Positions 6,553 to 8,495 of a stretch of DNA of 37,339 nt are shown here, piece after piece. This stretch comes from a virus. Taxonomy: Duplodnaviria > Heunggongvirae > Uroviricota > Caudoviricetes. Location of the stretch: positions 1 to 37,339 of the IMG/VR virus record IMGVR_UViG_2585427777_000002, one strand, 5' to 3'. Under the pieces are notes generated by a model. The model did no database searches. It was not told the origin of the DNA and worked only from the letters and a program-made list of their open reading frames with translations. Every line of letters starts with the position of its first letter. Position 1 is the stretch's first letter. Both the position numbers and the translations under genes were made by a program.

Positions 6553-7245
6553 ATGAATACCAAACCTTCCATCTTTTCCTTTGAGTCATCCTGCCAGATC
6601 CGTATGTTCATGATTGACGGAGAACCTTGGTTTGTCACCAAAGATGTGTGCAATGCTTTGAATATTGATGTTACACAAGCGAGAAAACTTGATAAAAAAG
6701 GCTGGAACAAAAAGGGGCTGTATTCAATACAGACCCCTGGTGGAATACAAGAACTATCCATCGTTTCAGAATCAGGTCTCTACATCCTTATTCTGCGTTG
6801 CAAAGAGGCAATGACTGAGGGAACGAGAGCATTCAGATTTCTTGAATGGGTTACAGGTGAGGTTCTTCCTCAGATCCGCCGCACCGGAAGTTACATTAAA
6901 AACTCGCTCCCGCAGGAAGAACGCATAAAGATGGTTGCCGACCAGGTAGCCAACGCCACGGCGTCAGCAGTAATGCAGGCGATGAAGATAGAGAACAAAA
7001 CCTACAGCGCCCCGCTGAAGCCCGGCTACCGCAGTTTGATTCACTCGCCGTCTGGTGTTCTCGGCCTGACGGAGAACTCACTGCTGATGAATTTGCTGAA
7101 CCAGTTACAGGAAGACGGGCATGACGTATCGGGCGCGGCGGCGGAACTGACCACCATGTTCTGCTACATCGTCGGTGTGAGTAAATGCCTGCGTGATATC
7201 CAGACTCACGCGGAGTACATCAACGACAAAGCAGGATTCTTCTGA
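6553..7245 (+). CDS. antirepressor with Bro-N N-terminal domain
   Basis: ATG 6553; Bro-N signature IRMFMIDGEPWFVTKDVCNALNI; C-terminal 80 aa nearly identical to the C-terminus of 8253..8903. Confidence 0.85.
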   Translation: MNTKPSIFSFESSCQIRMFMIDGEPWFVTKDVCNALNIDVTQARKLDKKGWNKKGLYSIQTPGGIQELSIVSESGLYILILRCKEAMTEGTRAFRFLEWVTGEVLPQIRRTGSYIKNSLPQEERIKMVADQVANATASAVMQAMKIENKTYSAPLKPGYRSLIHSPSGVLGLTENSLLMNLLNQLQEDGHDVSGAAAELTTMFCYIVGVSKCLRDIQTHAEYINDKAGFF

Positions 7246-7275
7246 CGGGCGGCGGCACAGGGATGTGCCTTTAAA
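7003..7275. repeat. left arm of about 270-bp inverted repeat (3' end of Bro-N antirepressor gene plus about 28 bp)
   Basis: Reverse complement matches 8225..8495 with only a handful of synonymous differences. Confidence 0.85.
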
Positions 7276-7417
7276 TAATTCTGTACAGATTGCAGACTGG
7301 GGGTGAATAGCGTACTATTACCTCACGGGTGATCCATAGCGATTAGGCACCGATACAGGAGGAGCCCACATGAGAAAATTTGACGAGCACGAAGGCGTTT
7401 AACATTCGGATAGTTCA

Positions 7418-7434
7418 TTTACCCTAATGGTAAA
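7418..7434. promoter_or_regulatory. operator-like palindrome TTTACCCTAATGGTAAA upstream of gene 7474
   Basis: Perfect TTACC-N5-GGTAA about 40 bp upstream of the start codon. Confidence 0.6.
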
Positions 7435-7473
7435 TCCCGCTTAAAGAAGCATCTATATATTATGAGGTGATGT

Positions 7474-8109
7474 ATGCCACAACAACTGCTGAATCCGGCA
7501 AAGGTAACTGAGGTTTTCGCTCATCTGAACGAAACTCCAGACAACCGCGCCCTGTATTCAGAGTTAGTGAACGGCAACGATGTCACATCTGATGTCAAAG
7601 GCGTTTCTCTGGCTCCTGGATACCGCGTTGTCCGTGTAGACGATCGTAAGAAAGGCGAGATTCCACAGGCGCACTTTGAACTGTCATTGATAAATGACCT
7701 CACCGAAGAGGTAGTGTATTACAATCGTGTCATTATCCAGCCTGACAGCTATCTTAACTGCCGTCCTGTCACGCAGATATTGGTATGGAGAACCCAGAAG
7801 CCTAAGCATCGTGCTGTGCTTCATGATTTCGCTGGCATCATCTTCATGAACTACCTCTTGGAACGGTACGATATCATCGTGTCTGATCGCAACCAGACTC
7901 ATGAAGGCATGTCGTTCTGGCAGGCTCGCATGTATGACGCACTGGAACTTGGCCTCCATCTCTATGGTTACGACATGATGACATGCGAACTTATAGAGAT
8001 GAATAACGAGGAAGAGCTTGAGAAAGGTGAAACCTGGTTGTGGGGTGATGCGGAAAACTTCCAAAACAGATTGGCCATAATTTCAAAGCATAAGCTGCCA
8101 ATAAAATAG
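7474..8109 (+). CDS. hypothetical protein (orphan cargo gene between the inverted repeats)
   Basis: 211 aa ORF with ATG start and GAGGTGA RBS; own operator-containing upstream region and own terminator; no family recognised. Confidence 0.6.
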   Translation: MPQQLLNPAKVTEVFAHLNETPDNRALYSELVNGNDVTSDVKGVSLAPGYRVVRVDDRKKGEIPQAHFELSLINDLTEEVVYYNRVIIQPDSYLNCRPVTQILVWRTQKPKHRAVLHDFAGIIFMNYLLERYDIIVSDRNQTHEGMSFWQARMYDALELGLHLYGYDMMTCELIEMNNEEELEKGETWLWGDAENFQNRLAIISKHKLPIK

Positions 8110-8115
8110 TTCTTT

Positions 8116-8138
8116 AAGCCCGCGACGCGGGCTTTTTT
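8116..8138 (+). terminator. rho-independent terminator of gene 7474..8109
   Basis: Stem AAGCCCG/CGGGCTT followed by TTTTTT directly after the stop codon. Confidence 0.65.
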
Positions 8139-8174
8139 GTGTCTGCGGATTCCCGCCCGGGTGGCGGTGGCATT

Positions 8175-8203
8175 CGTTAAAAACAAGGCCGCGAAAGCGG
8201 CCT
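8175..8203 (-). terminator. putative terminator of the AntA-type antirepressor gene
   Basis: Hairpin AGGCCGC-gaaa-GCGGCCT followed on the minus strand by TGTTTTTAA. Confidence 0.45.
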
Positions 8204-8215
8204 GTGACATGTCAC
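8204..8215. repeat. 12-bp perfect palindrome GTGACATGTCAC
   Basis: Read directly; identical copy at 26099..26110, both at the 3' flank of a plus-strand cargo gene beside a terminator. Confidence 0.5.
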
Positions 8216-8224
8216 GATAGTTCC

Positions 8225-8495
8225 GTTTTGCACATCCCTGTGCCGCCGCCCGTCAGAAGAATCCTGCTTTGTCGTTGATGTATTCCGCGTGGGTCTGGAT
8301 ATCACGCAGGCATTTACTCACACCGACGATGTAGCAGAACATAGTGGTCAGCTCCGCCGCCGCGCCCGATACGTCGTGCCCGTCTTCCTGTAACTGGTTC
8401 AGCAAATTCATCAGCAGTGAGTTCTCCGTCAGGCCGAGAACACCAGACGGCGAGTGAATCAGGCTACGGTAGCCGGGCTTCAGTGGGGCACTGTA
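8225..8495. repeat. right arm of about 270-bp inverted repeat (3' end of AntA-type antirepressor gene plus about 28 bp)
   Basis: Reverse complement matches 7003..7275. Confidence 0.85.

What the first reader, a model, noticed from the sequence alone, without database searches (positions are those of the whole stretch)
7003..8495. About 270-bp near-identical inverted repeats made of the 3' ends of two convergent antirepressor genes, flanking an orphan gene
The last 80 codons plus about 28 bp downstream of the Bro-N gene (7003..7275) and of the AntA gene (8225..8495) are reverse complements of each other with only a few synonymous differences, although the N-terminal domains are unrelated. This points to recent gene conversion on a shared C-terminal module, probably the part that contacts the repressor. 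The arms enclose 7276..8224, which holds gene 7474..8109 with its own operator and terminators, so homologous recombination could invert the segment. No site-specific invertase gene is present.
Basis: seen in the sequence. Interest (0 to 1): 0.65.

Follow-up and report, generated by a model that had tools for sequence, protein, structure and literature searches.

The report
Twin antirepressor genes sharing repressor-binding tail
Two convergent antirepressor genes of an E. coli prophage end in the same 80-codon module, a relative of a repressor-binding protein with a solved structure, so the inverted repeat is real; it looks like a by-product of modular gene shuffling, not a recent gene conversion or a programmed DNA switch.

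Summary
The repeat is real. Arms 6990-7268 and 8230-8508 are 279 nt and 95% complementary. The 80 shared codons differ at 10 bases, all synonymous.

It is the inner pair of a nested inverted structure. The two gene leaders (6261-6527 and 8930-9199) are also inverted repeats, and each carries an isrK RNA and a C4 antisense RNA.

The shared module is a paralogue (42% identity) of the small antirepressor Ant of Salmonella phage SPC32H, solved in complex with its repressor (PDB 5D50). A stand-alone Ant behind a perfect LexA box (5982-6239) and the matching repressor (32371-32955) are also in the window. "Contacts the repressor" is therefore well supported by homology.

"Recent gene conversion" is not supported. 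The two arms are 95.8% identical, no more alike than copies taken from different phages (mean 95.9%).

Among the related prophage loci collected here that carry the module, 26 have two convergent modules. Seven N-terminal domain types are fused to the same module, and each of the six types seen in two-module loci can occupy either slot or only the right one. Cargo between the arms is inverted in 3 of 19 two-arm loci and in 0 of 52 one-arm loci.

Recombination across these repeats has therefore happened, but I found no invertase and no sign of a switch. This is a new variant of known systems, of moderate interest.

The parts
5891..5905 (.). Operator-like palindrome TTACC-N5-GGTAA upstream of the stand-alone ant gene
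   Evidence: 16 copies in the window against 0.66 expected by chance
5945..5960 (.). LexA box CTGTATAAATATACAG
   Evidence: the only CTGT-N8-ACAG site in this region; it lies 22 nt before the ant start codon
5982..6239 (+). Stand-alone antirepressor Ant (85 aa), orthologue of SPC32H Ant
   Evidence: PDB 5D50_E, E 4e-47 over residues 2-84; phrog_450
6271..6315 (+). Operator palindrome (6271-6285) and promoter-like site TTTACA-17-CATAGT (6287-6315) that would start the left isrK transcript
6322..6398 (+). Left isrK RNA with its terminator; holds the a1 target (6347-6353) and a probable b1 target
   Evidence: RF01394, 74.7 bits against gathering score 50; a1 complementarity
6417..6504 (+). Left C4 antisense RNA, b' loop class alpha (CCUUUGUAG)
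   Evidence: RF01695, 78.6 bits against gathering score 45.
6536..6544 (+). b2 target CUACAAAGG, which I read as overlapping the ribosome-binding site of the Bro-N gene
   Evidence: 9-nt perfect complement of the left C4 loop; no match of 7 nt or more to the right C4 loop
6553..7245 (+). Bro-N / Ant-module fusion antirepressor (230 aa)
   Evidence: Bro-N, residues 16-106; residues 149-225 match 5D50_E. H9 with PMC9782041: a 95%-identical region of phage ZX5 holds a Bro-N antirepressor shown to be active
6990..7268 (+). Left arm of the inner inverted repeat (last 80 codons plus 23 nt)
7419..7433 (.). Operator-like palindrome upstream of the cargo gene
7474..8109 (+). Cargo gene (211 aa) of a conserved prophage family with a possible GNAT-like fold
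   Evidence: phrog_1349, E 2.9e-78; 94 homologues; AlphaFold2 pLDDT 86; top Foldseek hits almost all acetyltransferases, E 2e-5, TM 0.35-0.44
8116..8134 (+). Intrinsic terminator after the cargo gene
   Evidence: 8-bp stem, 6 G-C pairs, T run
8186..8203 (-). Intrinsic terminator after the AntA gene
   Evidence: 7-bp stem, 6 G-C pairs, T run
8230..8508 (-). Right arm of the inner inverted repeat
8253..8903 (-). AntA / Ant-module fusion antirepressor (216 aa)
   Evidence: AntA, residues 21-90; last 80 residues identical to those of the Bro-N protein
8914..8921 (-). b2 target CUAAGUGG, which I read as lying at the ribosome-binding site of the AntA gene
   Evidence: perfect complement of the right C4 loop; a second copy (b1) lies at 9090-9097
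8953..9037 (-). Right C4 antisense RNA, b' loop class gamma (CCACUUAG)
   Evidence: RF01695, 61.2 bits against gathering score 45.
9062..9138 (-). Right isrK RNA with its terminator
   Evidence: RF01394, 67.7 bits against gathering score 50
9145..9189 (-). Promoter-like site (9173-9145) and operator palindrome (9175-9189) for the right module
9337..9735 (+). P22_AR_N-only ORF (132 aa), apparently a truncated third antirepressor lacking the C-terminal module
   Evidence: E 2.4e-43. The full-length relative in TL-2011b is 314 aa. Annotated as a pseudogene in AH20E044
32371..32955 (+). Phage repressor Rep, the presumed target of the Ant domains
   Evidence: PDB 5D50_A, E 3.5e-42 over the full length. 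Operator palindromes flank the gene
33559..35258 (+). Phage recombination genes: a PDDEXK exonuclease-like protein and RecT
   Evidence: DUF3799, 1.2e-21; RecT, 1.2e-31

Best explanation
The window is a phiV10/epsilon15-like (Uetakevirus) prophage of E. coli. Between the tail-fibre gene and the injection-protein genes lies a region that controls escape from repression. Its first gene is a small SPC32H-type antirepressor, Ant, behind a LexA box. Two larger antirepressor genes follow and face each other. Each is built as [own promoter with operator] - [isrK RNA] - [C4 antisense RNA] - [variable N-terminal domain: Bro-N on the left, AntA on the right] - [constant 80-residue C-terminal module]. 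The constant module is a paralogue of Ant. I infer that it binds the phage repressor Rep and may also drive oligomerisation. Because the genes converge, their shared 3' ends form the inner inverted repeat and their shared leaders form an outer one. The arms are similar because this module is conserved as protein across the whole phage group (purifying selection on a common gene pool), not because the two copies were recently homogenised in this genome. The two modules are regulated separately: each C4 RNA has a recognition loop complementary only to the ribosome-binding region of its own gene. The space between the arms is a cargo slot, insulated by terminators on both strands; here it holds a conserved gene of unknown function. 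The leader and C-module repeats act as portable homology. General or phage RecT-type recombination can use them to swap N-domains, move modules between slots and occasionally invert segments. Inversion across the inner arms would flip the cargo without changing either protein, so I regard it as a tolerated by-product and not a switch. Shown: the repeat, the RNA elements, the homologies, the population-level shuffling and both orientations among relatives. Inferred: Rep binding by the module, independent C4 control, and the recombination mechanism.
For: Repeat. Nested leader repeats carrying isrK and C4, both above Rfam gathering scores. C-module homologous to the solved Ant of the Rep-Ant complex: E 9e-14; 42% identity over 74 aa. 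Stand-alone Ant: (E 4e-47). Rep: (E 3.5e-42). LexA box. SPC32H Ant is described as a tetramer that binds two Rep dimers and breaks the Rep tetramer (PMC9638917). A Bro-N antirepressor of phage ZX5, in a region about 95% identical in DNA to the window's left module (H9), lowered the prophage titre about 1000-fold when overexpressed (PMC9782041). No recent conversion: within-genome arm identity 95.4% against 94.9% between genomes; family-wide mean 95.9% with 108 DNA variants, 17 protein variants and 50 of 71 variable sites at third codon positions. Modularity: seven N-domain types on the same module; 26 loci with two convergent modules and types found in either slot. The window's left module is 98.3% identical to the right module of L014. 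Orthogonal C4 control. Both orientations. Insulating terminators. RecT and exonuclease.
Against: No experiment or read-level data exist for this locus. Binding of the fused module to Rep is inferred from 42% identity to Ant. Within-genome arm identity is slightly but nominally significantly higher than between genomes (permutation p 0.004, difference 0.5 points), so occasional conversion is not excluded. In some loci the arms differ at only 3-4 of 240 nt. The clearest inversion between close relatives (L070 against L104) used the outer leader repeats. Every inverted-cargo locus can also be read as a right-hand module that brought its own downstream cargo, so inversion across the inner arms is not proven.
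Confidence: 0.7

Rival explanations
1. Concerted evolution: the two C-terminal modules are kept alike by recent or recurrent gene conversion between the inverted copies in the same genome.
For: The arms encode identical proteins and contain long identical runs. Within-genome pairs are marginally more alike than between-genome pairs (95.4% against 94.9%, permutation p 0.004). A few loci have arms differing at only 3-4 of 240 nt. The phage carries RecT.
Against: The window's arms differ at 10 of 240 nt (95.8%), exactly the mean for random pairs among 108 distinct copies (95.9%). The neighbouring single-copy ant gene is less diverse across phages (98.5%). All differences are synonymous and 50 of 71 variable sites are third positions, which is the signature of purifying selection.
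Confidence: 0.1
2. A programmed invertible switch: the repeats are there to flip the enclosed gene (or the whole two-gene unit) at useful frequency and change expression, as in the Mu G or P1 C segments.
For: Both orientations of the inter-arm cargo exist among relatives, and only where two arms are present (3 of 19 against 0 of 52, Fisher p 0.017). A clean 2.5-kb inversion separates two phages with 98.8% identical backbones. The locus lies next to the tail-fibre gene, as in Mu and P1.
Against: No serine or tyrosine invertase beyond the integrase fragment at the window end. The arms are long coding repeats, not short crossover sites. Inversion across the inner arms changes neither protein. The cargo has its own operator and is insulated by terminators in either orientation. 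The strong 16:3 orientation bias and 5% arm divergence argue for rare events.
Confidence: 0.05
3. An RNA-level function: read-through transcripts crossing both arms would fold into a 279-bp double-stranded stem, or act as antisense to the other gene's C-module, coupling expression of the two antirepressors.
For: The geometry allows it: the genes converge, the arms are 95% complementary, and only 961 nt separate them.
Against: Strong terminators on both strands lie between the arms. Each gene already has a dedicated antisense regulator. One-arm relatives, the majority of the related loci, work without it.
Confidence: 0.05

Closest known systems
SPC32H Ant-Rep antirepression system (Salmonella epsilon15-like phage; PDB 5D50, 5D4Z)
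   Same: The window has a near-identical stand-alone Ant behind a LexA box and a full-length Rep homologue. The shared C-terminal module of both large genes is a paralogue of Ant.
   Different: Here the Ant fold also occurs as the C-terminal domain of Bro-N and AntA proteins (and of P22_AR_N proteins in relatives). These fusions lack a LexA box, sit behind C4/isrK leaders, and occur as a convergent pair. Neither Pfam nor NCBIfam has a model for this domain.
P1/P7 immI region (c4 antisense RNA controlling icd-ant)
   Same: Both leaders match the Rfam C4 model above threshold. Each C4 has single-stranded a' and b' elements complementary to an upstream (a1/b1) and a downstream (a2/b2) target at the antirepressor's ribosome-binding region. 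The b' element and its target co-vary in three classes. From memory, this resembles the P1/P7 specificity difference.
   Different: The controlled proteins are unrelated to P1 Ant1/2. No icd homologue was identified. Two modules of different specificity sit face to face in one phage.
Gifsy-1 isrK-orf45-anrP locus of Salmonella
   Same: isrK matches above threshold in both leaders. The layout is the same: an sRNA with its terminator, then a structured leader, then an antirepressor-like gene read by terminator read-through (PMC4825925).
   Different: Activation in trans by the short isrK RNA, and an orf45-type upstream ORF, were not tested here. The phage type and the downstream target (AntQ in Gifsy-1) differ.
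P22 immI (mnt-arc-ant)
   Same: In relatives such as TL-2011b the right-hand slot holds an Arc-like repressor plus a P22_AR_N antirepressor. The window keeps a truncated P22_AR_N gene.
   Different: In these relatives the P22-type Ant carries the SPC32H-type C-terminal module. The window itself has no arc or mnt gene in this region.
Invertible segments of Mu (G), P1 (C) and related systems
   Same: A segment bounded by inverted repeats lies near a tail-fibre gene, and both orientations are seen in nature.
   Different: There is no invertase. The repeats are 279-bp gene ends, not short recombination sites. Inversion would not alter any protein.

Membership tests
SPC32H-type antirepressor Ant | Sequence homology to the solved Ant chain (PDB 5D50_E) | tested here: met
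   Stand-alone ORF 5982-6239: E 4e-47. C-module of the Bro-N protein, residues 149-225: E 9e-14. 42% identity to the window's own Ant.
SPC32H-type antirepressor Ant | A cognate Rep repressor encoded by the same phage | tested here: met
   32371-32955 matches 5D50_A over its full length, E 3.5e-42.
SPC32H-type antirepressor Ant | LexA-controlled expression (SOS box at the promoter) | tested here: not met
   Met for the stand-alone ant (box at 5945-5960), but no CTGT-N8-ACAG site lies in either isrK/C4 leader of the two fusion genes. The fusions could still be reached by read-through from the LexA-controlled promoter on the left side only.
SPC32H-type antirepressor Ant | Direct binding to Rep and disassembly of the Rep tetramer | not testable with these tools
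   Requires pull-down, two-hybrid or gel-shift assays with the window's Rep.
P1-type immI (c4 antisense control of ant) | A C4 RNA with the family's sequence and structure | tested here: met
   RF01695: 78.6 bits (left) and 61.2 bits (right) against gathering score 45.
P1-type immI (c4 antisense control of ant) | a'/b' elements complementary to targets upstream and at the ribosome-binding region of the controlled gene | tested here: met
   a' AGACCAA pairs with two TTGGTCT sites in each leader. b' pairs with its own ribosome-binding region (9 nt left, 8 nt right), and no cross match of 7 nt or more was found. Loop and target co-vary in three classes across more than 130 modules.
P1-type immI (c4 antisense control of ant) | An icd-like ORF translationally coupled to ant | tested here: inconclusive
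   Reading the sequence, a 25-codon ORF starts at about 6399 and runs through C4. No homology or coupling test was done.
isrK sRNA | Match to RF01394 above the gathering score, with a terminator | tested here: met
   74.7 and 67.7 bits against 50. Terminators at 6379-6392 (+) and 9084-9068 (-).
Site-specific invertible segment (Gin/Cin/Hin type) | An adjacent invertase gene | tested here: not met
   No resolvase or invertase Pfam hit among 37 ORFs scanned. Only an integrase fragment at 36803-37264 and RecT/exonuclease genes.
Site-specific invertible segment (Gin/Cin/Hin type) | Both orientations present within one population | not testable with these tools
   Needs reads from a lysogen. Across genomes both orientations exist.
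Concerted evolution of inverted paralogues | Copies within a genome clearly more alike than copies between genomes | tested here: not met
   95.4% against 94.9%. The window's pair, at 95.8%, equals the family mean of 95.9%.

The most novel reading that the evidence does not exclude
The nested inverted repeats (leaders outside, Ant modules inside), together with the phage's own RecT/exonuclease, could form a homology-driven cassette-exchange system. It would let phiV10-like prophages reassort antirepressor N-domains, C4 specificity classes and cargo genes between two slots. One repressor would then be placed under three separately gated Ant-fold inputs: LexA, C4-alpha and C4-gamma. Co-resident modules would tend to carry different C4 classes so that they do not cross-silence.
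Probability: 0.2. Interest if true: 0.7.

Novelty: new variant of a known kind. Interest (0 to 1): 0.45.

Why it matters
The finding ties a solved repressor-antirepressor pair (SPC32H Rep-Ant) to a much larger and mostly unannotated set of modular antirepressors. The Ant fold serves as a portable C-terminal module fused to Bro-N, AntA and P22_AR_N domains, yet it has no Pfam or NCBIfam model, and in PHROGs it is filed under unknown function.

One prophage can evidently carry three Ant-fold proteins under three different controls: one by the SOS response and two by antisense RNAs of different specificity. That makes a testable model for how several signals are integrated in prophage induction and in cross-talk between prophages.

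It also illustrates how conserved linker sequences can drive mosaic evolution, including inversions, without any dedicated recombinase. For genome annotation, the practical lessons are that the 85-aa ORF is the primary antirepressor and that the middle gene is not an orphan.

Tried and rejected
1. Exact copy of the window's arrangement. I looked for Bro-N type T1 + the 211-aa gene + AntA type T7 elsewhere. None turned up in 5,426 complete E. coli genomes (no place covering 80% or more of the query) or in about 160 IMG/VR loci. Each part occurs separately, so both orientations of this precise locus could not be compared.

2. Function of the middle gene. Pfam, NCBIfam and PADLOC gave nothing. 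PHROGs gave only an unknown-function family. The fold search suggests a divergent GNAT-like fold with low TM scores, which I treat as tentative.

3. Rule of different C4 classes. I asked whether co-resident modules always carry different C4 specificity classes. Nine of 10 distinct architectures do, against 62% expected, which is not significant, and L067 is an exception. I rejected this as a rule.

4. Domain architectures of the C-module. The protein search with the 80-aa module returned only 18 short proteins, so it did not give the architecture survey I wanted. It did show stand-alone versions of about 95 aa in Klebsiella and Raoultella.

5. Primary literature. The two SPC32H papers (J Virol 2013, PMC3807360; PNAS 2016) are not in the library. 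Statements about Ant's mechanism therefore rest on PMC9638917, PMC7380047 and the PDB entry names.

6. Assembly artefact or chance. Rejected: the same architecture recurs in many independent assemblies, including complete genomes.

7. Inverted-cargo loci as proof of inner-arm inversion. Rejected as proof. L070 against L104 is a leader-to-leader inversion. The other cases are topologically indistinguishable from a right-hand module keeping its own cargo. ETEC4085 is the best candidate, because the arms are its only inverted repeat.
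Full report
**1. Observation**

The inverted repeat exists and is far beyond chance. Arms 6990-7268 and 8230-8508 are 279 nt, 95% complementary and 961 nt apart. The high-identity core is 7003-7268 / 8230-8495.

The arms are the last 80 codons plus 23 nt of two convergent genes:
- 6553-7245 (+), 230 aa, Pfam Bro-N.
- 8253-8903 (-), 216 aa, Pfam AntA.

The 80 shared residues are identical. The 240 coding bases differ at 10 positions, all synonymous.

- 6261-6365 / 9095-9199 (105 nt, 94%).
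- 6469-6527 / 8930-8988 (59 nt, 95%).
- Two shorter stretches.

The structure is therefore nested: leader - variable N-domain - constant module - cargo - constant module - variable N-domain - leader.

**2. Context**

The window is a phiV10/epsilon15-like (Uetakevirus) prophage of E. coli. The region lies between the tail-fibre gene (3015-5786, -) and the injection-protein genes (from 10345, -).

Rfam finds an isrK RNA and a C4 antisense RNA in each leader, all above gathering scores:
- isrK: 6322-6398 (+) and 9062-9138 (-).
- C4: 6417-6504 (+) and 8953-9037 (-).

Each leader also has a promoter-like site that would start transcription at the isrK 5' end, and an overlapping palindrome TTACC-N5-GGTAA. 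Each arm therefore belongs to a complete regulatory module of the P1 immI / Gifsy-1 isrK-anrP kind (PMC4825925).

**3. The shared module**

A search of solved structures matches residues 149-225 of the Bro-N protein to PDB 5D50 chain E, "Anti-repressor protein" (E 9e-14).

The small ORF 5982-6239, just upstream of the left leader, matches the same chain at E 4e-47. It is preceded by a perfect LexA box, CTGTATAAATATACAG, at 5945-5960.

The window's HTH protein 32371-32955 matches the partner chain 5D50_A, "Repressor", over its full length (E 3.5e-42).

From the literature held:
- Ant production in such phages follows LexA cleavage (PMC7380047).

The shared module is 42% identical to the window's own Ant. 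The window thus holds three Ant-fold domains, one free and two fused. Direct binding remains untested.

There is independent functional support. In the related phage vB_EcoP_ZX5, a region about 95% identical in DNA to the window's left module (H9) holds a Bro-N antirepressor. When overexpressed, it lowered the prophage titre from about 10^9 to 10^6 (PMC9782041).

**4. Is the similarity due to recent gene conversion?**

I collected about 160 related loci from IMG/VR, phage records and complete E. coli genomes.
- The 240-nt module occurs in 108 distinct DNA versions that encode only 17 protein versions.
- 50 of 71 variable sites are third codon positions.
- Mean pairwise identity is 95.9%.
- The window's two arms are 95.8% identical, so they are as different as two random copies from different phages.
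- Across 19 distinct two-arm loci, within-genome identity is 95.4% against 94.9% between genomes. The difference is tiny, though nominally significant (permutation p 0.004).
- The neighbouring single-copy ant gene is less diverse (98.5%).

The likeness of the arms is therefore explained by purifying selection on a module shared by the whole phage group. Recent homogenisation in this genome is not needed. Occasional conversion elsewhere is not excluded, since some loci differ at only 3-4 nt.

**5. Modularity and recombination**

At least seven N-terminal domain types are fused to the same module: four Bro-N variants, two AntA variants and a P22_AR_N type.

Most relatives have one module in the left slot. 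26 of the related loci with an oriented backbone have two convergent modules. Types are not tied to a slot:
- The window's Bro-N module (leader to arm end, 6260-7268) is 98.3% identical to the right-hand module of L014.
- The window's AntA protein occurs, 100% identical, in the left slot of L086 and in the right slot of L112.

The inverted repeat made of two C-modules recurs with different partners:
- TL-2011b: 292 nt, 91%.
- AH20E044: 259 nt, 97%.
- ETEC4085: 257 nt, 98%.

Cargo between the arms varies. It can be this 211-aa gene, a YafO toxin gene or a small 53-aa gene. Genomes that keep only the conserved ends of the cargo region carry DUF4760 or DUF2335 genes there instead.

**6. Does the segment invert?**

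After removing duplicates, cargo runs in the same direction as the left gene in 52 of 52 one-arm loci. In two-arm loci it does so in 16 and is inverted in 3 (Fisher p 0.017).

*L070 against L104.* This is the cleanest pair.
- The backbones are 98.8% identical over 5.5 kb.
- A 2.5-kb block (leader - Bro-N - arm - cargo - arm) is inverted at 99.3% identity.
- The non-homologous N-domain on the far side is flanked by an inverted leader match.
- This is a leader-to-leader inversion, through the outer repeats.

*ETEC4085.* This complete genome is the best candidate for inversion through the inner arms.
- The arms are its only inverted repeat.
- Its small-gene cargo block is reversed relative to six other loci with the same right-hand P22-type module.

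*MS 196-1.* This second complete genome also has the window's Bro-N type on the left with reversed YafO cargo.

*Caveat.* Once both arms are present, an inner-arm flip cannot be told apart from a right-hand module that kept its own downstream cargo. Inner-arm inversion is therefore plausible but not proven, and nothing is known about this particular lysogen.

*No sign of a switch.*
- No resolvase or invertase was found among 37 ORFs scanned.
- The phage does encode RecT and a PDDEXK exonuclease-like protein.
- An inner flip would change neither protein.
- The cargo gene has its own operator-like palindrome (7419-7433) and is flanked by strong terminators on both strands (8116-8134 +, 8203-8186 -).

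I therefore see no evidence for a programmed switch.

**7. Regulation of the two modules**

In each C4 RNA a single-stranded AGACCAA (a') is complementary to two TTGGTCT sites in its leader. This element is the same in both modules. The loop of the second hairpin (b') differs:
- Left: CCUUUGUAG, complementary to CUACAAAGG at 6536-6544, which I read as overlapping the Bro-N ribosome-binding site.
- Right: CCACUUAG, complementary to CUAAGUGG at 8914-8921 (which I read as the AntA ribosome-binding site) and at 9090-9097.
- No cross-complementarity of 7 nt or more was found.

Across more than 130 modules, loop and target co-vary perfectly in three classes. The two genes are therefore likely under separate antisense control. 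From memory, this resembles P1/P7 immI specificities.

Nine of 10 distinct two-module architectures combine different classes, but this is not significant against 62% expected.

**8. The enclosed gene**

7474-8109 is not an orphan.
- It belongs to phrog_1349 (E 2.9e-78).
- It has 94 homologues in prophages of Salmonella, Dickeya, Serratia, Erwinia, Yersinia, Xenorhabdus and Photorhabdus.
- An AlphaFold2 model (pLDDT 86) has top Foldseek matches that are almost all acetyltransferases (GNAT and related folds), but with low TM scores (0.35-0.44, E 2e-5). I treat a divergent GNAT-like fold as tentative.

**9. Verdict**

- Repressor-contacting module: yes, by homology.
- Recombination substrate: plausible, with comparative support.
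- Recent gene conversion: no.
- Orphan gene: no.

The components are all known kinds: SPC32H Ant/Rep, the C4/isrK leader, and Bro-N/AntA/P22_AR_N antirepressors. The new elements are their combination, namely the Ant fold as a portable C-terminal module, two separately gated fusion genes face to face in a nested inverted repeat, and population-level reassortment. I did not find this combination described in the papers searched. I rate it a new variant of a known kind, with moderate interest.

Noticed in passing
window 5945-6239: A perfect LexA box (CTGTATAAATATACAG) precedes an 85-aa ORF that matches the crystallised SPC32H antirepressor Ant at E 4e-47. This is the phage's primary SOS-controlled antirepressor, and relatives annotate it only as a hypothetical protein.
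   Followed up: yes
window 5891, 6271, 7318, 7419, 9175, 9761, 25063, 28253, 28271, 29951, 30013, 31916, 32253, 32301, 33013, 33074: The palindrome TTACC-N5-GGTAA occurs 16 times (up to 1 mismatch) against 0.66 expected. The copies I checked lie ahead of genes: the ant gene, both isrK leaders, the cargo gene and orf175. Four copies flank the repressor gene. It is a candidate Rep operator, which would put the antirepressor modules themselves under Rep control.
   Followed up: partly
window 6417-6504 and 8953-9037; loci L001-L160: The C4 hairpin-2 loop and the ribosome-binding region of the downstream antirepressor co-vary in three classes (CCUUUGUAG/CUACAAAGG, CCUUUUAG/CUAAAAGG, CCACUUAG/CUAAGUGG) across more than 130 modules. 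The window combines the first and third classes.
   Followed up: yes
window 7474-8109: The cargo gene belongs to a conserved family in Enterobacterales prophages. Its confident AlphaFold2 model matches almost only acetyltransferases (GNAT and related folds), weakly. The same slot holds YafO toxin genes in other phages, so a toxin-like or modifying role is conceivable.
   Followed up: partly
window 9337-9735: A P22_AR_N-only ORF of 132 aa with a GTG start, divergent from the right module, looks like a truncated third antirepressor that lost its C-terminal module. The equivalent is annotated as a pseudogene in strain AH20E044.
   Followed up: partly
window 33559-35258: The phage encodes a PDDEXK exonuclease-like protein and RecT, that is, its own homologous-recombination system, which could act on the leader and C-module repeats.
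   Followed up: no
window 7269-7330 and 8142-8229; The two ends of the inter-arm region are conserved in hundreds of E. coli genomes while the gene between them varies (this gene, or DUF4760 and DUF2335 genes in genomes that keep only the ends). The region behaves as a cargo insertion slot with fixed junctions.
   Followed up: partly
window 6399-6476: A 25-codon ORF starts just after the isrK terminator and runs through the C4 RNA. In one Bro-N variant (type T2) the equivalent frame continues into the antirepressor gene. It may be the counterpart of P1 icd or Gifsy-1 orf45.
   Followed up: no
proteins P0100 and P0103: Stand-alone proteins of about 95 aa that are 64-66% identical to the shared C-terminal module occur in Raoultella and Klebsiella. 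One is named anti-repressor by its source, so this paralogue also exists unfused.
   Followed up: no
L161 (E. coli MS 196-1) 7189-7908: In this complete genome the right-hand convergent gene is an ORF6N-domain protein followed by a longer run of cargo genes. This hints at an eighth N-domain type in the same architecture. I did not check whether it carries the C-module.
   Followed up: no
window 36803-37264: A tyrosine-integrase catalytic-domain ORF that starts at profile position 61, next to the window end. The integrase gene is probably split or cut by the window boundary.
   Followed up: no
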